DNA of 33,587 bases from the IMG/VR virus record IMGVR_UViG_3300045988_171205; one strand, given 5' to 3'. Within the stretch, counting starts at the first letter, position 1. The number at the start of each line of letters is the position of its first letter. A model generated the notes under the pieces. The model did not search any database, had not been told where the DNA came from, and saw nothing but the letters and a program-made list of their open reading frames with translations. The position numbers and the translations under genes are program-made. Of this stretch, positions 1 to 33,587 are shown in pieces. The stretch is from a virus.

Positions 1-135
1 ATGAAAGAAACATTTAAAGAAAAAGTTGCTAGTGAATTAAGAGCATTTAGAGCAATATGCATAGATATGATTAAAAATGAATCACAACAGACAGGAGGTA
101 TATATGAAAAAACCAGTAAAAAAACTTTCGGCAAG
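1..135 (+). CDS. small early ORF (44 aa), first gene downstream of the PR-like promoter. Its first 55 nt are duplicated at 33533..33587 at the circular junction
   Basis: ATG at 1 (= 33533) lies 5 nt after GGAGGT (33523-33528) and downstream of TTGACT-17-TATAAT. No recognisable domain. Confidence 0.3.
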
Positions 136-3580: not shown

Positions 3581-3803
3581 GTATCTTATGTTAGATAAAA
3601 ATAAAAAAGATAGATTAGAAGAATTATTAAAAATTGTTTCTATATCTGATGAAGAATTAGAAAAATTAACTTATAAAGAGAAACAAAAATATTATAGAGC
3701 AAAAAATAAATTATGCAAAGTTGTATTTGTTTCAAGAAATAAACAAGGAAAAGGATTAACTTATAGAAAGCCTAAGGAGGTAAGAAATGAAAGAATCGCA
3801 TGA
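3561..3803 (+). CDS. hypothetical protein
   Basis: ORF ends in AAGGAGG, the SD of the next gene. Alternative start is 3588. Confidence 0.35.
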   Translation: MLKKESRYLMLDKNKKDRLEELLKIVSISDEELEKLTYKEKQKYYRAKNKLCKVVFVSRNKQGKGLTYRKPKEVRNERIA

Positions 3804-4386
3804 TATAAAAAGTTTAAATATCAATGTACCTAAAAAAAGTCATTTTACTTCAAAAGGAAATCTGTATCATTGTACTTTTGATCTAATTACAAATAAAAGG
3901 TTGTCTGAAACTGAAAGAACAGTTATACAACAACTTATCAAAAACAATTTATTATTGACAGAAAATGATTCTAAATCCACTGTAAGTAACTTGATCAAAA
4001 TGTGTGAAGATTATCAATTTGAAATAGCAAGATTAAAAAAAGAATTAAGAGAGAAAAAATCAGATGAAGATTTTGTTCCTCTTATAGGTATCATAAAGTC
4101 AGAAGATGATGAATATTTATTTGTTCAATATGATATTTTAGGAATTATTAAAATACCAAAATTGGAATTGACTATATTTAAATTGAAAAATAGTGATGAA
4201 TGTTTTTATAAAACTTTTGGCTTTCAATGGTCTCCAAGTAATGATTTAATTAGTAAAGCAGCCTGTGAAATGTTATTTCAAGTTGCAAAAAACTTTGGTT
4301 CTTGGTGTGCAGAAATATTTACAAAAACAACTTCACTTTTCTCTAGTCCATTTAATAAAGAGAAAACAGATAAAAATGATAAATGA
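3787..4386 (+). CDS. hypothetical protein
   Basis: AAGGAGG SD upstream. 199-aa ORF in an AT-rich genome. Confidence 0.5.
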   Translation: MKESHDIKSLNINVPKKSHFTSKGNLYHCTFDLITNKRLSETERTVIQQLIKNNLLLTENDSKSTVSNLIKMCEDYQFEIARLKKELREKKSDEDFVPLIGIIKSEDDEYLFVQYDILGIIKIPKLELTIFKLKNSDECFYKTFGFQWSPSNDLISKAACEMLFQVAKNFGSWCAEIFTKTTSLFSSPFNKEKTDKNDK

Positions 4387-4507
4387 AGTACTGAAAAAAT
4401 TAAATAAGTTGATAGCAGATGAGCCAAAAATTGGCTCTCTGATATCTGTAATTTTCCTCTTTATTCTAATTGCAATTCTAATGTTAATGTCTATTATCTT
4501 TAATTAA
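4376..4507 (+). CDS. small hydrophobic peptide (43 aa, one TM segment)
   Basis: ATG 4376 overlaps the upstream stop. SLISVIFLFILIAILMLMSIIF is hydrophobic. Confidence 0.3.
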   Translation: MINEVLKKLNKLIADEPKIGSLISVIFLFILIAILMLMSIIFN

Positions 4508-4510
4508 AAT

Positions 4511-5686: not shown

Positions 5687-6187
5687 ATGAAATTTAAAGT
5701 AGGAGATAAAGTAATATTAAATAAAAAAATAAAAGATTTTAAGTATGGTCGTGGTTTTGTTAGTTATGATGAGTTAGGAATAATAAAAGGAATAAATGAA
5801 TACCAAGAAATAATAGTTGATTTTCTATCTTGCGATGATTGGAGAGGTTTAGAAAAAGAATTAATATTAGTATCATCAAATAGTAAAAAAACATTCTTCA
5901 AAAAATTACCAAATGATTATACAGGAACAATAGAAGTAGAAAATGGTTATATAGTAGAAAAAGAAATACTAGATGAAGAAGAAAAAGAATATTTAAGTGC
6001 GGTTATTAGACCATTTAGAGATAGGGTTAGATTTATTGCAAAGCGTAGTAACGATGAAGAATATATATTTATTTCAATAAAAAGTGATGCATCATTACCA
6101 TTCCCTTTTTTTAAAAAAGGCACTATGTATAAAGGTATGGAAGCAGATAAAAAATATACACTAAAGGAGTTAGGTTTAGATGAATAA
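5687..6187 (+). CDS. hypothetical protein
   Basis: GGAGAG SD. 166-aa ORF. Confidence 0.45.
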   Translation: MKFKVGDKVILNKKIKDFKYGRGFVSYDELGIIKGINEYQEIIVDFLSCDDWRGLEKELILVSSNSKKTFFKKLPNDYTGTIEVENGYIVEKEILDEEEKEYLSAVIRPFRDRVRFIAKRSNDEEYIFISIKSDASLPFPFFKKGTMYKGMEADKKYTLKELGLDE

Positions 6188-19998: not shown

Positions 19999-22230
19999 AT
20001 GGCAAAAGGAAGTTCTTTTGGAGGAACAGTCAAACTTAATGGTGAAGATGAATACAAAAAGGCTTTAAGAGATATTACTAGCAATTTAAAATTAGTCTCA
20101 AGTGAGTTAAAACTAACAAACACTGAATTTTCAAATGGAGACAAAAATATAAAGCAAGCCAAAACTTCTTATGATTCTATGAAGAATACATTACAATCAC
20201 AGAAAGATAAAGTCAAAGAGTTAAAAGAAGCTCTTAGCAAAATGGAAAAAGAATATGGTAGTAATAATGAAACAGTTAGACTATTTAAAACACAACTAAA
20301 TAATGCAGAAAATCAATTAAAGCAAATGGAAGATGCCACCGATAAAGGCAATAAAGAACTCAAAGAAATGAAAAAAGGTTTTGAAGATGCGGGAGATGGA
20401 GCATTAAAATTTAGCGATGTACTTAAGGCAAATGTTTTGGGTGATGTAATTGTTGGAGGACTAAAAAAAATTGGTAGTGCAACATTAGAAATTGGAAAAG
20501 CTTTTTTAGATGTTGGTAAACAAGCATTAGATAGTTATGCTAATTATGAACAGTTAGTAGGTGGTGTAGAGACACTATTTAAAGATAGTGCAAATATTGT
20601 TGAGGACTATGCCAATAATGCATATAAAAATGCTGGTTTATCCGCAAATGATTACATGGAGACGGTAACATCTTTTTCGGCGAGTTTATTACAGAGTTTA
20701 AATAATGATACTGCCAAAAGTGCGGAGGTTGCAGATATGGCAATTACTGATATGTCTGATAATGCCAATAAAATGGGGACAGATATGTCTATGATACAAA
20801 ATGCTTATCAAGGGTTCGCAAAACAAAACTATACAATGTTAGATAACTTGAAATTAGGTTATGGTGGAACAAAATCAGAAATGGAAAGGTTGTTAGCAGA
20901 TGCTGAAAAAATAAGTGGTATAAAATATGATATTTCAAGTTTTGCTGACATAACACAAGCAATACATGTAATGCAAGAGGAAATGGGAATAACAGGAACA
21001 ACTGCAAAAGAAGCAGGAACCACTATAGAAGGATCAATAAACTCGATGAAAAGTGCTTGGCAAAATCTCTTAACAGATCTTGCAAATGGTGGTAAAAATA
21101 TGGGTTCGCTAATTGAAAATCTTATGACCACGATATTTGGTGATGGAACAGAGACTAATTTGGGTGTATTTGGGAATGTTTTACCAGTAATTCAAAATAT
21201 AGTATCAAGTTTTGCTGATGTTATTCCAAATATTGTGGATAAATTAATGGAGCATTTGCCATATTTATTAGATGCTGCATCAGAAATAATAATGTCGTTG
21301 GTTTATGGAATTACAGAAAATATTCCTGCATTAATGCCTGTAATAAGTGATTTAGTTGGAAATATTTTACAATATATCATCGAAAGTTTACCGATTATTA
21401 TTAATTCTGGTGTTCAAATAATATTAGCATTAGTTCAAGGAATAGGAGAAAGTTTGCCTACATTAATACCTGCACTTGTGGATGCAGTAGTTTTAATAGT
21501 AGAAACTTTAATTGACAATATAGATTTGATTATAGATGCAGGTATCCAGTTAATTTTAGGACTTGCTGATGGACTTATAGAGGCACTACCCAGATTAATT
21601 GACAAAGTACCAGAAATAATTGAAAAACTATTTGATGCTTTTATTAGAAATTTTCCTAAAATAGTAGAGGCAGGAGGACAATTGATAGGTAAATTGATTG
21701 TTGGTATAATTGGATCTTTAGGAACATTATATAGTAGGGTTCCTGAGATTATACATACTGTAGTTAAAGGGATTTCTAGTGGCTATCAGACAATAAAAAA
21801 TGCAGGCTTAAATCTTGTGGCAGGCATATGGGAAGGTATATCTGGAAGCCTGGGCTGGATCAAAAATAAAATAAAAGGATGGGTAGGGAATGTTACTAAA
21901 TTTATTAAAAATCTGTTTGGTATTCATTCGCCATCTAAATTATTTAAAGATGAGATAGGAACAAACTTAGCACTTGGTATTGGCGAAGGGTTTACTGATA
22001 CAATGACTGATGTTCAACAAGAGATGGCAGATGCAATTCCTACAAAATTTGATACAACAATAAATTCAAGAATTGGTAACAATAGTTATCAAAATGTTGC
22101 AAATTCAGGTTCATTTGATAATATGGTAATTGCCTTTAAAACTGCTTTAAAAGATGTCAAAGTTATAATGGATGAAAAAGAAATGGGGACATTTGTTACA
22201 AATGCTGTGGAAGAGGTGGTATATTCATGA
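19999..22230 (+). CDS. tail tape measure protein
   Basis: GAAGGGAGGT SD. 743 aa. N-terminal coiled coil. Long stretches of repetitive hydrophobic segments (IIESLPIIINSGVQIILALVQGIGESLPTLIPALVD...) typical of TMPs. Confidence 0.75.
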   Translation: MAKGSSFGGTVKLNGEDEYKKALRDITSNLKLVSSELKLTNTEFSNGDKNIKQAKTSYDSMKNTLQSQKDKVKELKEALSKMEKEYGSNNETVRLFKTQLNNAENQLKQMEDATDKGNKELKEMKKGFEDAGDGALKFSDVLKANVLGDVIVGGLKKIGSATLEIGKAFLDVGKQALDSYANYEQLVGGVETLFKDSANIVEDYANNAYKNAGLSANDYMETVTSFSASLLQSLNNDTAKSAEVADMAITDMSDNANKMGTDMSMIQNAYQGFAKQNYTMLDNLKLGYGGTKSEMERLLADAEKISGIKYDISSFADITQAIHVMQEEMGITGTTAKEAGTTIEGSINSMKSAWQNLLTDLANGGKNMGSLIENLMTTIFGDGTETNLGVFGNVLPVIQNIVSSFADVIPNIVDKLMEHLPYLLDAASEIIMSLVYGITENIPALMPVISDLVGNILQYIIESLPIIINSGVQIILALVQGIGESLPTLIPALVDAVVLIVETLIDNIDLIIDAGIQLILGLADGLIEALPRLIDKVPEIIEKLFDAFIRNFPKIVEAGGQLIGKLIVGIIGSLGTLYSRVPEIIHTVVKGISSGYQTIKNAGLNLVAGIWEGISGSLGWIKNKIKGWVGNVTKFIKNLFGIHSPSKLFKDEIGTNLALGIGEGFTDTMTDVQQEMADAIPTKFDTTINSRIGNNSYQNVANSGSFDNMVIAFKTALKDVKVIMDEKEMGTFVTNAVEEVVYS

Positions 22231-29406: not shown

Positions 29407-29574
29407 AATCCTTTTCCTACTAAAATTATATAATAGTTCGTTACAAATGTCAAATGAAAAAGATAATTAAAGGGGTAAAATTGGTTTTAGCAATTTATAA
29501 AAATTCAAGTGATAAATATGTTCCTATTTATGATGGTGAATATGTTGTTGATTTTGGAAAGGTGGCTCAATAAT

Positions 29575-30291
29575 ATGGAAAGTAGGGTTACTAGATATTC
29601 CAGAAAAAACAAATTAAAAAGAAAGATGACAAAATTATTTAAGAGTATTTTGAAGAATATGATTTATTTAATAGTTGGGATATTTTCTGCAATGTATTTT
29701 GGATTGAAAGTATTTAATAGATTGATTGAGAAACTATTTAATAAATTGCCTAGAGTAATGAAAGTAGCAATAATCTATTTATTAATTATTAATGTAGGGT
29801 TAGATATTTATAGCATGTTCGGAAAAAATGGCAAAGAAATACAAATATCTTTGAATGATATAAAACTCTCTTCTATACCTACATATATTCCACCAGTTGA
29901 AGAAAAAGAAGAAGTATGTCCTTTTGATAGTATTTCTTGTAAAATATCAGATAAGGGAAAAGAAATAGGTTTAAGCGATGAGCAAATACTAATATCAATT
30001 GCTATTTCTCAGCATGAAACTGGAAACTATACATCTTATGCTTTTAGAGAACTTAATAATGTTGGTGGTATGATGTGCAATAGTGGTTTAAGATCATATG
30101 ATTCACTAGATGATGGCATAGAAGCCTATCTAAATAATTTAAAGTATAATTACTTTGATATAGGATTAGACACTTTAGAAAAAATTCAGCCTAAATATTG
30201 TCCAATAGGAGCCGAAAACGATCCTAAAGGTTTAAATAAATATTGGTTAAGTGGTACTCAAAGGAAATATAATGAATTAATAGGAAAATAA
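29575..30291 (+). CDS. membrane-anchored peptidoglycan hydrolase-like protein (two N-terminal TM helices plus GH73/glucosaminidase-like domain)
   Basis: AISQHETGNYTSYAFRELNNVGGMM...LRSYDSLDDGIEAYLNNLKYNY parallels the AALESGWGxS...NNLFGIK...YxSYxES GH73 signature including the catalytic Glu. Start uncertain (29509 or 29575). Confidence 0.45.
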   Translation: MESRVTRYSRKNKLKRKMTKLFKSILKNMIYLIVGIFSAMYFGLKVFNRLIEKLFNKLPRVMKVAIIYLLIINVGLDIYSMFGKNGKEIQISLNDIKLSSIPTYIPPVEEKEEVCPFDSISCKISDKGKEIGLSDEQILISIAISQHETGNYTSYAFRELNNVGGMMCNSGLRSYDSLDDGIEAYLNNLKYNYFDIGLDTLEKIQPKYCPIGAENDPKGLNKYWLSGTQRKYNELIGK

Positions 30292-30560
30292 ATGAATTTT
30301 TACATCTTATTTACATCTTAAAAAAATATAAAATAATATTATTAAATATCTATTTTAACCTCATTTTATCGCAAAATATAAGGTAATATTATAAAATATA
30401 ATTAAATAATCTATATCTTTATTTTCTCATCACCTGCTCCAAATGAAAATAAACCCTTAAAATATAAGGGTTTTTATTATTTTATATAACTTTTACATCT
30501 TATTTTTTATAATTTTATATAACTTTTACATCTTATTTACATCTTATTTTTTATAATTCT
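30292..30560. other. candidate attP region: direct repeats TTTTACATCTTATTTACATCTTA (30297-30319 and 30524-30546), tandem TTATATAACTTTTACATCTTATTTT copies, and a hairpin AACCCTTA-AAATAT-TAAGGGTT (30454-30475)
   Basis: Repeats read directly. Lies in a noncoding region immediately 3' of the integrase gene. Confidence 0.45.
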
Positions 30561-31627
30561 AATTTATTTAGTCCTTCTGATATTACAAATTTATCGCTTT
30601 CAAATAGATGTGAATATGTTTCTATTACTGTTGTTTCTGTATCTCCAATTCTTGTTGCTACTTGTTTAATTGTGTAGTTCATACTTCTTAAAAGAGTTAC
30701 ATGTGAATGTCTAAACTCGTGAATAGTTATCCTTTTTACATTTGCTTTTTTTATATAACTTTCTTTTTTTCTAGTTATTGTTGTTCTAGATAATGGAACA
30801 ATATCACCGAAGATAAACATTTCATTATTGAATCCATATATTTTTGATTTTTGAATATATAAATCATCTAATAGTTTAATAACATTATTTGGAATATCTA
30901 CTTTTCTATATGAATTACTTGTTTTTGGTGTTGTTATTTTACCACTTTTATTATAGCTCTTATTAATATTTATAATTTTATTGTTATAGTCCTTCCACTT
31001 TAAAGCTTGAAGTTCTCCTATTCTAAGTCCAGCAAAATATAAAAGTGAAAAGAGAGTTTTATATTCTAAATCATCTACCTGATTCATGAATTGTTTATAT
31101 TCATCTAGATTCCATACCTGATATTCTTTTGGTGGTGTTACACCACATTGAATAGTTTTTATTTTATTGAATATTGGTATGTTAAGATCATATATTTCAA
31201 TACCTGTTCTTAAAATAGACTTGAAATAGGTTATTACACTGTTTTGAGTTTTAATATTTAATTTTGAAATATTATTTTTCATTTCTTCAAATTGAATAAT
31301 ACTAATCTTGCTTACCATTGTTTTTTTAAATACTGGCAAGATATGTTTAGTAATTCTATTTTTTGTATTTTCATAGGTTTCCTCTTTATTCTTTTTTTTA
31401 TATTCTTTTAAATATATTAATGTTAATGATTCAAAATCTAAATCTTTTTGTTTTTCATAATTCATTAAAAATGTTCTTTCAGCATCTTGTGCTTCTGCTT
31501 TTGTTAAGAACATTTTAGAAGTCTTTTGTTTTCTACTTCCATTAAGATCATTGTAGTAAGTTCTAAAGTACCAACTTCTACCATCTTTTGAATACTTTTT
31601 TTTATTTTTTTCTTTATAAATTGCCAT
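30551..31627 (-). CDS. int: tyrosine integrase (phage integrase family with N-terminal arm-binding domain)
   Basis: AIYKEKNKKKYSKDGRSWYFRTYY (AP2-like arm-binding N-terminus). GLRIGEL, HEFRHSHVTLL and IETYSH catalytic motifs. Confidence 0.85.
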   Translation of the reverse strand: MAIYKEKNKKKYSKDGRSWYFRTYYNDLNGSRKQKTSKMFLTKAEAQDAERTFLMNYEKQKDLDFESLTLIYLKEYKKKNKEETYENTKNRITKHILPVFKKTMVSKISIIQFEEMKNNISKLNIKTQNSVITYFKSILRTGIEIYDLNIPIFNKIKTIQCGVTPPKEYQVWNLDEYKQFMNQVDDLEYKTLFSLLYFAGLRIGELQALKWKDYNNKIININKSYNKSGKITTPKTSNSYRKVDIPNNVIKLLDDLYIQKSKIYGFNNEMFIFGDIVPLSRTTITRKKESYIKKANVKRITIHEFRHSHVTLLRSMNYTIKQVATRIGDTETTVIETYSHLFESDKFVISEGLNKLEL

Positions 31628-31732
31628 TTTTTAACCTCCAATTATTTACATATTTATTTGTTTTTGATATAATTAGAGTGCATAGAAAAAAAGATTGTCT
31701 GTTGTGATTCAATTTTATTTTTATGCACTATT

Positions 31733-31765
31733 CTAGTACCTATTGCAGTAGGTACTAGTTTTTTT
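31733..31765 (+). terminator. hairpin CTAGTACCTA-TTGCAG-TAGGTACTAG followed by T7 between the exonuclease gene and int
   Basis: Perfect 10-bp stem. Orientation of the T-run is + strand; may act bidirectionally. Confidence 0.4.
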
Positions 31766-32684
31766 AATTTAATTCTTCAATTATCTCTCCAGTGTTTTCA
31801 TCCATAATTACAATTTTTTTCTTTTGTGTTGAATTTAAATATAATTGATATACTTTTGAACAAGTTTCACAATCATCTAAAGCCCTATGAGAATCATAAT
31901 TTAATCCTAAATACTCTTTTAGTGTAGCTAATTTATAATTTTCAATACTTTCTCTTGGAATGATTCTTTTTGCTAAGGTAACAGTGTCAATTATTTTATT
32001 ATTACATAATTCTTTTTTATTTCTATAACATTCACTTGCTAACATTTTAATATCATAAGGTGCATTATGTGCCACTAAAGTTAAATCTTCAATAAAATCA
32101 AAAAATTGTGGTATTACTTCATTAATAGTAGGTTTGTCTTTTAAATCTTCTTGTTTTATGCCTGTTAACTGTGTTATAAATGGATTTATTACTTCTTTCG
32201 GATTAATTAGTGTAGAAAAAGTTTCTACTTTTTTATTATCAATAAATTTAATAGCAGATATTTCTATTATTTTGTCACAACTTGGATCTAATCCAGTAGT
32301 CTCTGTATCAAATACGACATAATCCTTAACAATTTTATTTGTTCTTCTTTTTGTATAAGAATCATACCATACAGCTTCTGGAACAAAGTTTCTTTCAATT
32401 TTATCTAAAAGTGAGTTCCCACATTTTGTGCAGAATTTGTTTTCTCTTTTGTTTTTTTCACCACAATACATACATATTTTAAATTTTGTATAATCTATTT
32501 CTTCTTTTATACTAATAATTTTAAATATATCTATTATCCATCCTATACAAAAAAGTCCGCATGTACAAAAATAAAGAATTCCTAGTCCAATTTTTTTATT
32601 ATAAAAATGATGTAATCCAAACCATCCTCCGAGAACACATAATATTAATGAAACTTCTTTATTTTTAATTTTATAATTTATCAT
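31764..32684 (-). CDS. TM2-domain membrane protein fused to zinc ribbon and DEDDh 3'-5' exonuclease (DnaQ/epsilon-like) domain
   Basis: GGWFGLHHFYNKKIGLGILYFCTCGLFCIGWIIDIF is TM2-like. CMYCGEKN...CTKCGN is a zinc ribbon. Exo I is VVFDTETTGLD, Exo II VAHNAPYDIKML, Exo III YDSHRALDDCE. Start overlaps the ImmA stop by 14 nt. Confidence 0.65.
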   Translation of the reverse strand: MINYKIKNKEVSLILCVLGGWFGLHHFYNKKIGLGILYFCTCGLFCIGWIIDIFKIISIKEEIDYTKFKICMYCGEKNKRENKFCTKCGNSLLDKIERNFVPEAVWYDSYTKRRTNKIVKDYVVFDTETTGLDPSCDKIIEISAIKFIDNKKVETFSTLINPKEVINPFITQLTGIKQEDLKDKPTINEVIPQFFDFIEDLTLVAHNAPYDIKMLASECYRNKKELCNNKIIDTVTLAKRIIPRESIENYKLATLKEYLGLNYDSHRALDDCETCSKVYQLYLNSTQKKKIVIMDENTGEIIEELN

Positions 32685-33009
32685 AATCTTTCTCCTCCTT
32701 TATAGTTTCTATTATGAAGTTAAGATATTTGTCAGCTTCATCTTCATACTTTTCAATATAAAAAGCAAACATATCTTTATTTAATTGTTTTAACTGACTT
32801 AATTCTATATGGGCTAATTCATGTAATATAGTCTTTTTTCTTTTGTAATATGATAATTCTTTATTTATGAATATATTATATATATTCTCATAACTAAATA
32901 CAAATCCATTAATTCCATCTGGCAAATCAATTATTGTTATACAAGCATTATAGTAGTTAAGTAATTCTTGTTGTGTTATTTCCCTTTTTAATAAACTAAT
33001 TATATTCAT
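32671..33009 (-). CDS. immA: ImmA/IrrE-family zinc metalloprotease (anti-repressor protease)
   Basis: HEXXH motif ILHELAHIEL. Size and position immediately downstream of the XRE repressor match the ImmR/ImmA arrangement. Confidence 0.6.
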   Translation of the reverse strand: MNIISLLKREITQQELLNYYNACITIIDLPDGINGFVFSYENIYNIFINKELSYYKRKKTILHELAHIELSQLKQLNKDMFAFYIEKYEDEADKYLNFIIETIKEEKDYDKL

Positions 33010-33052: not shown

Positions 33053-33418
33053 TTATTCTTCTTTTCCTAATTGTTTATCAATATCTTTTCTTCTTTTCTC
33101 TATTATAAACTTTATATATTGTTTATCATCCTCTGTAAGAATATTCTTATTTTTATCGAATAATAACTCTAATTCATCGAAAGAATTAGTTTCTTTTTTT
33201 TCTAGGTCTGTCCCGGTCAAATTAGCCACACTAATATTTAGAGCTTCAGCAACATCAAAAATATTATCTAATGATGGTGATATTTCTTCGTTTTCCCATC
33301 TGGCAATGGTAGTCTGATTTACATTTGCAAGTTCTGCTAATTTGTTTTGAGAAAGTTTCTTTTTTTCTCTAAGAAATTTAAGATTTTTACTAAATAGACT
33401 CATAAAATACCTCCTCAC
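33053..33418 (-). CDS. XRE-family HTH repressor (cI/ImmR-like)
   Basis: LSQNKLAELANVNQTTIARWENEEISPSLDNIFDVAEALNISVANL is a canonical XRE HTH. GAGGAGG SD. Divergent from the early promoter. Confidence 0.8.
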   Translation of the reverse strand: MRRYFMSLFSKNLKFLREKKKLSQNKLAELANVNQTTIARWENEEISPSLDNIFDVAEALNISVANLTGTDLEKKETNSFDELELLFDKNKNILTEDDKQYIKFIIEKRRKDIDKQLGKEE

Positions 33419-33461
33419 ACATTAATAATAGCATAAAAACATTAAGAAAGCAACATTTTTT

Positions 33462-33512
33462 ATGTTTTTTTGCATTTTTAGTATTGACTTCTGCAAAAAA
33501 ACATAGTATAAT
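33462..33512 (+). promoter_or_regulatory. early rightward promoter TTGACT (33484-33489), 17 bp, TATAAT (33507-33512), flanked by a perfect 13-bp inverted repeat ATGTTTTTTTGCA (33462-33474) / TGCAAAAAAACAT (33492-33504). Related half-site GCATAAAAACAT at 33431-33442
   Basis: Direct reading. The second operator copy overlaps the spacer and -10. Confidence 0.6.
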
Positions 33513-33532: not shown

Positions 33533-33587
33533 ATGAAAGAAACATTTAAAGAAAAAGTTGCTAGTGAATTAAGAGCATTTAGAGCAA
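33533..33587. repeat. 55-bp exact duplicate of positions 1..55 (assembly overlap of a circular molecule)
   Basis: Base-for-base identity read directly. Confidence 0.9.

What the first reader, a model, noticed from the sequence alone, without database searches (positions are those of the whole stretch)
31764..32684. Repressor-operon gene encoding a membrane-anchored DnaQ-like exonuclease (TM2 domain + zinc ribbon + DEDDh): candidate prophage defence or superinfection-exclusion nuclease
The 306-aa product combines three modules. The N-terminus is a TM2-type double-TM module (GGWFGLHHFY...GWIIDIF). A C4 zinc ribbon follows. The C-terminus carries all three motifs of a DEDDh 3'-5' exonuclease (DTETTG, HNAPYD, H-x4-D). 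Its start overlaps the stop of the ImmA-like gene by 14 nt. Together with the XRE repressor it sits in a single minus-strand operon ending at a hairpin before int, so it should be expressed in the lysogen. This is the classical slot for prophage superinfection-exclusion and defence genes. I do not know this domain combination as a described defence family. A nuclease held at the membrane could attack incoming phage DNA ends during injection, or act as an abortive-infection effector.
Basis: partly seen in the sequence, partly recalled or inferred. Interest (0 to 1): 0.75.

Follow-up and report, generated by a model that had tools for sequence, protein, structure and literature searches.

The report
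Membrane-anchored exonuclease in phage repressor operon
A temperate gut phage carries, in the same operon as its repressor, a gene for a DNA-end-chewing enzyme anchored to the cell membrane; it belongs to a previously undescribed family that probably destroys foreign DNA as it enters a lysogenic cell, but this function has not been tested.

Summary
ORF 31764..32684(-) encodes a 306-aa protein with a TM2 two-helix anchor, a C4 zinc ribbon and a complete DEDDh 3'-5' exonuclease. It overlaps the ImmA gene by 14 nt, downstream of the XRE repressor and upstream of int. The window is a whole circular temperate phage genome.

About 46-48 protein clusters share the fusion. The catalytic residues and the TM2 core are invariant; the zinc ribbon is optional. 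All 10 non-redundant fusions with readable context lie between a Cro/CI-type repressor and a recombinase, on unrelated phage backbones.

Very close exo domains carry other membrane anchors, or zinc-ribbon modules, in the same slot. Sibling phages with a 99% identical integrase hold a Bro-N/PDC-S13 protein, or nothing, there. TM-less DEDDh+BRCT relatives occupy the same slot in S. aureus PVL phages, pneumococcal prophages and Campylobacter CJIE4, where the protein was detected in lysogens.

Best reading: a lysogen-expressed, membrane-tethered exonuclease that attacks free 3' ends of incoming DNA. Whether the target is superinfecting phage DNA or transforming ssDNA is unresolved. The concept resembles SNIPE, with unrelated domains. 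The "terminator" hairpin has its T-run on the opposite strand.

The parts
33425..33453 (-). Candidate sigma-70 promoter of the repressor operon (TTGCTT-17-TATTAT), divergent from a + strand promoter-like site at 33484-33512
   Evidence: Regex on the sequence; the + strand site comes. These are consensus matches only.
33053..33403 (-). XRE/Cro-CI-type HTH repressor, 116 aa from ATG 33403 after a GAGGAGG ribosome-binding site
   Evidence: HTH_3 E 1e-15; RstR-like; PHROG transcriptional repressor families.
32671..33009 (-). ImmA/IrrE-like metalloprotease (HELAH motif), 112 aa
   Evidence: Peptidase_M78 E 4.5e-9; PHROG 87 metalloprotease.
31764..32684 (-). TM2 / zinc ribbon / DEDDh exonuclease gene, 306 aa plus stop; an AAGGAGGAG ribosome-binding site lies upstream; 14-nt overlap with the ImmA gene
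32523..32666 (-). TM2 two-helix membrane anchor (aa 7-54); G20, G23, H25, Y38, G43 and D52 are invariant in the family
   Evidence: Pfam; alignment A1; AF2 helices 9-28 and 32-57.
32409..32474 (-). C4 zinc ribbon (aa 71-92; C71, C74, C85, C88); an optional module in the family
31848..32318 (-). DEDDh 3'-5' exonuclease domain (aa 123-279); D126, E128, D211, H266 and D271 are invariant
31767..31823 (-). Conserved acidic C-terminal tail (aa 288-306, KKKIVIMDENTGEIIEELN), predicted as a beta-hairpin; function unknown
   Evidence: Shared by about 12 of 30 TM2 fusions and by variants with other anchors; AF2 strands 291-294 and 301-305 at pLDDT 58-75.
31733..31758 (.). 11-bp-stem hairpin between the exo gene and int; its T7 run is on the + strand
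30551..31627 (-). Tyrosine integrase, 358 aa
   Evidence: Phage_integrase, SAM-like and Arm-DNA-binding domains.

Best explanation
This is an accessory (moron-type) gene of a temperate phage, transcribed with the repressor and therefore made in the lysogen. Its product is held in the cytoplasmic membrane by a TM2 helical hairpin. A flexible linker, here containing a zinc ribbon, presents an active DEDDh 3'-5' DNA exonuclease on the cytoplasmic face. I propose that it attacks the free 3' end of linear DNA as that DNA emerges into the cell. The main proposed target is the leading end of a superinfecting phage genome. Removing a 3' cohesive overhang, or the 3' tails needed for recombinational circularisation, would block circularisation. 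Self DNA would be spared for two reasons: the chromosome and the resident prophage have no free ends, and the tether keeps the enzyme away from replication forks. Shown here: the domain architecture, the conserved catalytic site, the conserved repressor-to-recombinase position, the interchangeable anchors and the swappable slot. Inferred: expression in the lysogen, cytoplasmic orientation, DNA as the substrate, and the exclusion phenotype.
For: Domains and motifs are confirmed. All five catalytic residues and the TM2 core are invariant across 30 fusions of 43-81% identity. All 10 non-redundant fusions lie after a Cro/CI-type repressor and before a tyrosine or serine recombinase, with XRE+ImmA, XRE alone or S24-CI repressors and with different replication modules. 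Exo genes of housekeeping type in species-representative genomes show this context in 1 of 68 cases. Exo domains 66-84% identical to TM2-bearing ones carry other membrane anchors (N-terminal one- or two-pass, or a C-terminal anchor in P0062) or zinc-ribbon modules. The three alternative-anchor variants I looked up sit in the same slot, so tethering or localisation is the selected feature. SNIPE shows the same pattern of diversified N-terminal anchors. Sibling phages with a 99% identical Int carry a full-length PADLOC candidate PDC-S13 (Bro-N) protein, or nothing, in that slot; one relative adds a MazF-like gene. The closest solved structures are DNA 3'-end exonucleases: PolC exo, Cas2-DnaQ, DinG exo, epsilon and ExoX. 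Charge distribution favours N-in/C-in, as do a basic 105-aa N-terminal extension in P0071, a C-terminal anchor in P0062 and TM-less relatives in the same slot. A copy on an L. salivarius megaplasmid, next to Fic and a second exonuclease, argues for a general anti-invader role rather than a prophage-specific one.
Against: There is no functional data for any family member. DnaQ-like enzymes prefer single-stranded or frayed 3' ends, whereas phage DNA enters as a duplex, possibly shielded by the tape-measure conduit or by end-bound proteins. No PADLOC or PHROG defence or exclusion family matches beyond the exo domain. The alternative cargo PDC-S13 is itself only a candidate defence gene. Topology rests on charge counts and analogy, and TM helix 1 is only moderately hydrophobic. 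The host is uncultured and unnamed. TM-less BRCT relatives in the same slot show that tethering is not essential for whatever the wider exonuclease group does.
Confidence: 0.4

Rival explanations
1. The target is transforming or conjugative ssDNA rather than phage DNA. In Gram-positive bacteria, transforming ssDNA enters through ComEC with its 3' end leading (my own knowledge, from Mejean and Claverys on S. pneumoniae). A 3'-5' exonuclease tethered at the inner face of the membrane would degrade it on entry. That would protect the prophage from deletion by transformation ("chromosomal curing").
For: The enzyme's polarity and its preference for ssDNA 3' ends fit this substrate best. Nucleases carried by mobile elements that degrade transforming DNA are established: Dns, CJE0566, CJE1441, IdeA and SxnA. 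In CJIE4, the cassette repressor / ORF7 / DEDDh exonuclease / ORF9 / KAP is allelic with the cassette holding the anti-transformation DNase CJE1441, and both are expressed in lysogens. Relatives are common in prophages of the highly transformable S. pneumoniae. Transformation deletes pneumococcal prophages efficiently. [quoted passage not shown]
Against: Whether this host is competent is unknown. Exo relatives occur in phages of C. difficile, C. tetani and S. aureus, which are not known as strongly transformable. The known anti-transformation DNases act outside the cytoplasm and are unrelated endonucleases. A copy on a megaplasmid is not threatened by chromosomal curing.
Confidence: 0.25
2. 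It is a co-regulator of the lysis-lysogeny switch. By trimming ssDNA or 3' ends, it would tune the signal (RecA-ssDNA, or ssDNA sensed by ImmA) that triggers induction, or it would process the phage's own DNA ends during establishment of lysogeny.
For: The gene is translationally coupled to ImmA here. In pneumococcal prophages, the lysogeny-module accessory genes szaL and spaL act as co-regulators of activation, interacting with the DprA/RecA pathways, and ImmA may respond to ssDNA.
Against: The fusion is found with S24-CI repressors and with XRE alone, without ImmA, and the gene order relative to ImmA varies. Sibling phages with the same switch and integrase lack the gene altogether. Membrane tethering and anchor swapping have no obvious role in sensing cytoplasmic signals.
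Confidence: 0.12
3. It is an abortive-infection effector. The tethered nuclease would be inactive until infection releases or activates it, and would then degrade host and phage DNA and kill the cell.
For: SNIPE lacking its TM anchor is toxic. The conserved C-terminal tail could be autoinhibitory.
Against: An exonuclease needs free ends and is a poor killer of a cell with a circular chromosome. No sensor or partner gene is conserved next to it. There is no protease site or release mechanism in evidence.
Confidence: 0.07
4. The substrate is RNA or a short oligonucleotide rather than DNA. Examples would be nanoRNA or linearised cyclic-oligonucleotide signals, turned over at the membrane to modulate host signalling or defence.
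For: The DEDDh superfamily includes RNase T, Orn and Rv2179c-like RNases. There is a weak Rv2179c-like Pfam hit, E 5.9e-8, and RNase T structures are recovered at lower rank.
Against: The best sequence and structure matches are all DNA exonucleases. Related phage exos are fused to modules that bind DNA or DNA ends: BRCT, an OB fold, a topoisomerase zinc finger and Cas2.
Confidence: 0.05

Closest known systems
SNIPE (Saxton et al., bioRxiv 10.1101/2025.11.03.685801)
   Same: It is a nuclease anchored in the cytoplasmic membrane with the catalytic domain in the cytoplasm. It acts on phage DNA during entry, the tether prevents self-damage, and the N-terminal anchors are diversified among homologs.
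   Different: SNIPE is a single-pass TM protein with DUF4041 and a GIY-YIG endonuclease; none of these domains is present here. SNIPE is a chromosomal defence gene studied in E. coli, whereas this gene is cargo of a phage repressor operon in Firmicutes. This enzyme is an exonuclease and needs a free 3' end. SNIPE's function has been demonstrated; this one's has not.
Superinfection-exclusion genes in the int-repressor region of Gram-positive siphophages (lactococcal Sie2009, S. thermophilus TP-J34 Ltp; my own knowledge)
   Same: They occupy the same genomic slot, are expressed in the lysogen, are membrane-associated, and act at the DNA-entry step.
   Different: Those proteins are small membrane proteins or lipoproteins with no enzymatic domain, and they block injection. 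No sequence similarity to them was detected, and no Sie family appeared among the PHROG hits.
DEDDh+BRCT exonucleases of lysogeny modules (S. aureus phi2958PVL gp05, pneumococcal IPP prophages, C. jejuni CJIE4 ORF8)
   Same: They have the same exo superfamily domain and the same position downstream of the repressor and upstream of int. CJIE4 ORF8 protein was detected in lysogens.
   Different: They are soluble, with a C-terminal BRCT domain in place of an N-terminal membrane anchor. The exo domains are only about 30-40% identical. Their function is also unknown, and they are often annotated as "DNA ligase" or "Pol III epsilon".
Prophage and ICE nucleases that block natural transformation (CJIE1 Dns, CJE0566, CJE1441, IdeA, SxnA)
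   Same: They are nucleases encoded by mobile elements, expressed from the integrated element, that destroy incoming DNA. The CJE1441 cassette is allelic with a DEDDh exo cassette.
   Different: They are secreted or periplasmic non-specific endonucleases and are unrelated in fold.
Proofreading and trimming DEDDh exonucleases (PolC exo domain, DnaQ epsilon, Cas2-DnaQ, DinG exo, ExoX)
   Same: They share the fold and the catalytic motifs. Target-normalised TM-scores are 0.79-0.87 for the Cas2-DnaQ domain (8h2f), epsilon (2ido) and ExoX (4fzy), and identity is 29-39%.
   Different: The protein falls below every equivalog cutoff (for example TIGR01406: 105 bits against 222.7). It has no polymerase, helicase or Cas2 partner domain, it is membrane-anchored, and it is encoded by a phage lysogeny operon.
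Mammalian TREX1 (my own knowledge)
   Same: It is a DEDDh 3'-5' DNA exonuclease tethered to a membrane (the ER) by a TM segment, and it clears unwanted cytosolic DNA.
   Different: Its anchor is C-terminal, it is eukaryotic, and it arose independently. The comparison is an analogy only.

Membership tests
DEDDh (DnaQ-like) 3'-5' exonuclease superfamily, Pfam RNase_T PF00929 | Profile match above the gathering score | tested here: met
   134.6 bits against a cutoff of 24, aa 123-279, covering the full-length model 1-164.
DEDDh (DnaQ-like) 3'-5' exonuclease superfamily, Pfam RNase_T PF00929 | Exo I DxE, Exo II D and Exo III Hx4D catalytic residues | tested here: met
   D126, E128, D211, H266 and D271 are present and invariant in 30 homologs.
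DEDDh (DnaQ-like) 3'-5' exonuclease superfamily, Pfam RNase_T PF00929 | RNase H-like exonuclease fold | tested here: met
   The AF2 model has pLDDT above 90 over the domain. Foldseek matches 8h2f, 2ido and 4fzy with target-normalised TM-scores of 0.79-0.87.
DEDDh (DnaQ-like) 3'-5' exonuclease superfamily, Pfam RNase_T PF00929 | Metal-dependent 3'-5' exonuclease activity | not testable with these tools
   This needs biochemistry.
TM2 domain (PF05154) | Profile match above the gathering score, with the conserved G-x2-G-x-H ... Y ... G ... W-x2-D core | tested here: met
   53.7 bits against a cutoff of 27.9. G20, G23, H25, Y38, G43 and D52 are invariant.
TM2 domain (PF05154) | Two membrane-spanning helices, both termini on the same side | tested here: inconclusive
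   AF2 gives two helical segments. Helix 2 is strongly hydrophobic, while helix 1 averages about 1.2 on the Kyte-Doolittle scale. K+R counts are 2.4 and 3.3 in the flanks against 1.7 in the loop. No dedicated topology predictor or experiment was available.
Zinc ribbon (PF13240) | Two CxxC knuckles and a profile match | tested here: met
   C71/C74 and C85/C88 are present. The score is 25.1 bits against a cutoff of 25. The module is absent from about 19 of 30 family members. Metal binding was not tested.
SNIPE | DUF4041 domain and GIY-YIG nuclease domain | tested here: not met
   Neither domain appears among the Pfam hits. The defining domains are as given.
SNIPE | Cleaves phage DNA during injection; depends on the membrane anchor | not testable with these tools
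   This needs experiments.
PADLOC candidate PDC-S48 | Full-length match to the 411- or 512-aa models | tested here: not met
   Only model positions 4-174 (the exo domain) match. The same is true of ten longer relatives.
DNA polymerase III epsilon / PolC proofreading subunit | Score above the NCBIfam equivalog cutoffs; polymerase-binding C-terminus or PolC context | tested here: not met
   TIGR01406 scores 105 bits against 222.7, PRK05711 103 against 196, and PolC 155 against 873. Only the domain-level model TIGR00573 passes. The context is a phage lysogeny operon.
CRISPR-associated DEDDh (PADLOC PDLC01247) | Association with cas genes or fusion to Cas2 | tested here: not met
   The domain model matches (7e-43), but the gene is flanked by ImmA and int and there is no Cas2 domain. 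The rest of the window was not scanned for cas genes.
Gram-positive prophage Sie proteins (Sie2009 / Ltp type) | Location between the repressor and int; membrane association | tested here: met
   Membrane association is predicted only.
Gram-positive prophage Sie proteins (Sie2009 / Ltp type) | Sequence homology to known Sie families; blocks DNA injection | tested here: not met
   No superinfection-exclusion family appears among the PHROG hits. The phenotype is not testable here.

The most novel reading that the evidence does not exclude
Temperate phages of Firmicutes carry a large, undescribed class of "entry-gate" exonucleases. A conserved DEDDh chassis is joined to interchangeable localisation modules: TM2, other membrane anchors, zinc ribbons and, more distantly, BRCT. 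These enzymes would tell foreign from self by DNA topology (a free 3' end) together with position at the membrane, not by sequence or modification. They would either exclude superinfecting phages or be the first cytoplasmic-face nucleases that defeat transformation-mediated prophage curing. The class would include uncharacterised genes in S. aureus PVL phages and pneumococcal prophages.
Probability: 0.3. Interest if true: 0.8.

Novelty: new variant of a known kind. Interest (0 to 1): 0.62.

Why it matters
If the proposed function is right, this is a second, independently evolved case of membrane-localised nuclease immunity after SNIPE, built from an exonuclease rather than an endonuclease. Self/non-self discrimination would then rest on DNA ends and location. 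It would give a function to a recurrent but ignored gene in the repressor-integrase region of many temperate phages, including soluble relatives in clinically important S. aureus PVL phages and pneumococcal prophages that are now mislabelled "DNA ligase" or "Pol III epsilon". It also bears on the open question of how prophages resist removal by natural transformation. The family gives directly testable constructs: wild type, D126A/E128A, a TM2 deletion and anchor swaps. A cultured carrier exists on a Ligilactobacillus salivarius megaplasmid.

Tried and rejected
- **Housekeeping protein:** rejected. Only 2 of the 80 best loci in species-representative genomes are full-length fusions, and both lie next to integrases. 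The roughly 180-aa standalone exos, PolC and DinG-like proteins have unrelated contexts.
- **Membership of PDC-S48:** rejected, because only the exo domain matches.
- **Obligate functional coupling to ImmA:** rejected. The fusion also follows S24-CI or lone XRE repressors, and the gene order varies.
- **The hairpin as the operon terminator:** not supported; its T-run is on the + strand.
- **Literature:** searches for TM2+exonuclease, DEDDh defence with a TM anchor, PDC-S48, lysogeny-module exonuclease, DnaQ-like prophage anti-phage genes and TM2 in phages found no description of the fusion. One "TM2 domain" paper referred to the second TM helix of Cap1 and was irrelevant, as was the C. clostridioforme prophage paper.
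- **Host identity:** a flanking GerM gene gave only unnamed metagenomic hits.
- **afdb50 fold search:** the library was unavailable. BFVD gave matches to the exo domain only.
- **Rfam on the window:** no hits.
- **Nucleotide search of phage records:** only a 276-nt tape-measure segment matched, to lactococcal phages.
- **Not used:** The search of protein representatives, because an exo-dominated profile would not have been specific.
Full report
**What is there.** The ORF at 31764..32684 on the minus strand encodes 306 aa. Pfam assigns TM2 (PF05154, aa 7-54, E 2.3e-14), a zinc ribbon (aa 71-92, 25.1 bits against a cutoff of 25) and RNase_T/DEDDh (PF00929, aa 123-279, E 6.2e-39). The three exonuclease motifs sit at 126 (DTETTG), 206 (HNAPYD) and 266 (HRALDD), and the four ribbon cysteines at 71, 74, 85 and 88. 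The start codon overlaps the upstream ImmA-like gene (32671..33009, Peptidase_M78) by 14 nt. Above that lies an XRE HTH gene (33053..33403), and below lies a tyrosine integrase (30551..31627).

**The window.** The first 55 nt equal the last 55 nt, so this is a circularly assembled contig: a complete temperate phage genome of about 33.5 kb with 26.9% GC. The repressor gene faces a divergent + strand promoter-like site (33484-33512). A minus-strand TTGCTT-17-TATTAT candidate lies at 33453..33425. This is the usual layout of a lysogeny switch. XRE, ImmA and the exonuclease gene are separated by 43 nt and by a 14-nt overlap, with no terminator-like site between them, so co-transcription is likely. 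The hairpin at 31733-31758 between the exo gene and int is real, but its T-run is on the + strand. It is not a canonical terminator for the operon, and read-through into int cannot be excluded.

**The family.** A search of the protein collection found 728 relatives. About 46-48 clusters at 90% identity carry both TM2 and the exonuclease; the closest, at 96% identity, has 162 member sequences. In an alignment of 30 fusions at 43-81% identity, all five catalytic residues (D126, E128, D211, H266, D271) and the TM2 core (G20, G23, H25, Y38, G43, D52) are invariant. The zinc ribbon is present in about 11 of the 30, and in one member it lies N-terminal to TM2, so it is an optional module. Two further conserved elements appeared. 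One is a pre-exo segment (NPYxNAVPxxxYxxAYxxRK). The other is an acidic C-terminal tail (KKKIxIxDxxTGExxEExN), present in this protein. An AlphaFold2 model has mean pLDDT 87.7 and predicts the tail as a beta-hairpin.

**Genomic context.** I fetched 194 loci and annotated neighbours in the first 177 plus the window, using locally built HMMs for XRE, ImmA and integrase. All 10 non-redundant TM2 fusions lie one or two genes downstream of a Cro/CI-type HTH gene on the same strand and upstream of a recombinase. Nine of the ten were found by the HMMs for each neighbour, and Pfam completed the remaining cases as HTH_26 and a large serine recombinase. The repressor may be XRE with ImmA, XRE alone or an S24 LexA-like CI. 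The order relative to ImmA varies, and the replication modules differ. The closest homolog is integrated at two or more different host sites and also occurs as a circular permutation. Exo genes of housekeeping type in species-representative genomes (standalone proteins of about 180 aa, PolC, DinG-like) show the repressor context in 1 of 68 cases.

**Interchangeable anchors.** Proteins whose exo domain is 66-84% identical to TM2-bearing members lack TM2. Some carry another module that anchors them in the membrane: a different two-helix N-terminal anchor (P0038, P0034), a single hydrophobic hairpin (the P0041 group), one or two N-terminal helices with a long acidic linker (the P0063 group) or a C-terminal multi-helix anchor (P0062). 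Others carry DUF4428-type zinc ribbons without a membrane segment. On a tree of the exo domain alone these types are interleaved with TM2 types; for example P0027 is 84% identical to P0007 and P0020 is 78% identical to P0001. The three alternative-anchor variants I looked up occupy the same repressor-to-integrase slot. The selected feature is therefore a conserved exonuclease joined to a replaceable localisation module, most often a membrane tether.

**The slot is a cargo slot.** Phages whose integrase is 98-99% identical to the window's carry different genes between the repressor and int. The alternatives are nothing, a 285-aa Bro-N protein that matches the PADLOC candidate PDC-S13 at full length (E 3e-109), a truncated form of that protein, or the TM2 exonuclease. 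One relative has a MazF/PemK-like gene next to the exonuclease.

**A wider pattern in cultured phages.** In viral contigs, 35 of 54 non-redundant exo genes of any architecture follow an XRE gene. The TM-less form is DEDDh plus BRCT. It occurs directly after the repressor in S. aureus phi2958PVL, where it is annotated "DNA ligase". It occurs next to int in pneumococcal IPP prophages, and after CI in Campylobacter CJIE4. For CJIE4, a published proteomic study detected this exonuclease (ORF8) in uninduced lysogens. The same study showed that its cassette is allelic with the cassette containing the DNase CJE1441, which blocks natural transformation (PMC3995785). A TM2 exonuclease also exists in a cultured organism, on Ligilactobacillus salivarius megaplasmids. 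It sits in a cluster with an XRE gene, a DEDDh+BRCT gene, an S24 peptidase and Fic, and the RefSeq start codon cuts off its TM2 domain.

**Enzyme and topology.** The nearest solved proteins by sequence and fold all remove nucleotides from DNA 3' ends: the PolC exonuclease domain (2p1j), the Cas2-DnaQ domain of S. thermophilus (8h2f, target-normalised TM-score 0.87), the S. aureus DinG exo domain, E. coli epsilon and ExoX. RNase T ranks lower. No equivalog model of NCBIfam is reached. Several observations favour a cytoplasmic exo domain. Basic residues are more frequent in the two flanks (2.4 and 3.3) than in the loop (1.7). One member has a 105-aa basic extension before TM2, another has the ribbon before TM2, and P0062 has the anchor at the C-terminus. 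Soluble relatives occupy the same slot. This remains a prediction: helix 1 is only moderately hydrophobic and no topology predictor was available.

**Mechanism.** I commit to the following, at confidence about 0.4. The protein is made in the lysogen, sits in the membrane with the exonuclease inside the cell, and degrades free 3' ends of linear DNA at the point of entry. The primary proposed target is a superinfecting phage genome. Loss of a 3' cohesive overhang, or of the 3' tails needed for recombinational circularisation, would be fatal to that genome. The chromosome and prophage have no ends, and the tether keeps the enzyme away from replication forks. The architecture, conservation, context, anchor exchange and slot variability are shown. 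Expression, orientation, substrate and phenotype are inferred.

**Rivals.**
- The main rival (0.25) keeps the same chemistry but makes transforming ssDNA the target. In Gram-positive bacteria this DNA enters 3' end first (my own knowledge), and its destruction would protect the prophage from chromosomal curing. Precedents for nucleases of mobile elements that degrade transforming DNA, and the CJIE4 allelism, support this. [quoted passage not shown]
- A role as co-regulator of induction (0.12) is weakened by the lack of coupling to any one repressor type and by sibling phages that lack the gene.
- Abortive infection (0.07) and an RNA or oligonucleotide substrate (0.05) fit the data poorly.

**Comparison with what is known.** The closest described concept is SNIPE, a membrane-bound nuclease that cleaves phage DNA during injection and whose N-terminal anchors are diversified. 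This protein is not a member: it lacks DUF4041 and GIY-YIG, and it is an exonuclease in a phage operon. It occupies the classical slot of Gram-positive Sie proteins but shares no similarity with them. It matches PDC-S48 and the CRISPR-associated DEDDh model only through the exo domain. Seven of my nine literature searches were aimed at the fusion or its function, and none found a description of it.

**Novelty and interest.** I rate it a new variant of a known kind: membrane-localised nuclease immunity and prophage accessory exclusion genes. Interest is 0.62. It is a well-supported, undescribed and testable family with relatives in clinically important phages, but its function is not demonstrated and the concept already has a precedent.

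Noticed in passing
window 1-55 and 33533-33587: There is an exact 55-nt terminal direct repeat. The window is a circularly assembled contig, that is, a complete temperate phage genome of about 33.5 kb with 26.9% GC.
   Followed up: partly
window 31645-31765, + strand: This is a candidate small antisense RNA between the exo stop codon and the int start codon. A strong promoter-like site (TTTACA-17-TATAAT with an upstream TG, 11 of 12 matches) is followed by two hairpins and a T7 run. The 91-nt fold is -30.7 kcal/mol with z = -6.2. The region is conserved in a relative whose integrase differs. There is no Rfam match.
   Followed up: partly
window 30292-30550: This is an attP-like region downstream of int. 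TTTACATCTTATTT occurs three times (30299, 30492, 30525), which may be arm-type integrase sites, and there is a bidirectional terminator-like hairpin at 30451-30473.
   Followed up: no
L178, L180, L181, L184 at 3651-4508; L183 at 588-1130; L179: Sibling phages with a 99% identical integrase carry a 285-aa Bro-N protein (a full-length match to the PADLOC candidate PDC-S13, E 3e-109), a 180-aa internally deleted form of it, or nothing in place of the TM2 exonuclease.
   Followed up: yes
L185 5956-7008 (L. salivarius megaplasmid NZ_CP117984.1): A 350-aa TM2 + exonuclease ORF is present in a cultured species. The RefSeq CDS starts at locus position 6157 and omits the TM2 domain. Its neighbours are an XRE gene, a DEDDh+BRCT exonuclease, an S24 peptidase and Fic.
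   Followed up: partly
L186 3543-4463 (S. aureus phage phi2958PVL gp05); L187 3492-4415; L188 3381-4424: DEDDh+BRCT exonucleases lie directly downstream of the repressor in PVL phages (annotated "DNA ligase"), in pneumococcal prophages and in CJIE4. Their function is unknown. CJIE4 ORF8 protein was detected in lysogens.
   Followed up: partly
proteins P0034, P0040, P0046 (relatives, not in the window): A segment N-terminal to the exo domain shares a GLFHxGC / TTYYPE-like motif in all three. In P0034 it matches Phage_min_cap2, the SPP1 gp7 family, weakly (22 bits, below the cutoff; P0046 gave no hit and P0040 was not scanned). It may be a phage-mimicking targeting module.
   Followed up: no
window 29509-30291, + strand: A 260-aa ORF lies after the lysis genes, with N-terminal hydrophobic segments and a sub-threshold glucosaminidase match (22.6 bits against a cutoff of 30.2).
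   Followed up: no
L105-L107, L112; proteins P0066-P0071: This is a sub-family with TM2, the exonuclease and an extra C-terminal domain of about 145 aa. By inspection of the sequences that domain resembles the C-terminal region of C. tetani phage phiCT9441A gp78. It has no Pfam match.
   Followed up: no
window 20740-21015: A 276-nt stretch of the tape-measure gene is 78-80% identical to lactococcal P335-type phages. It is the only nucleotide-level similarity to any deposited phage record.
   Followed up: no
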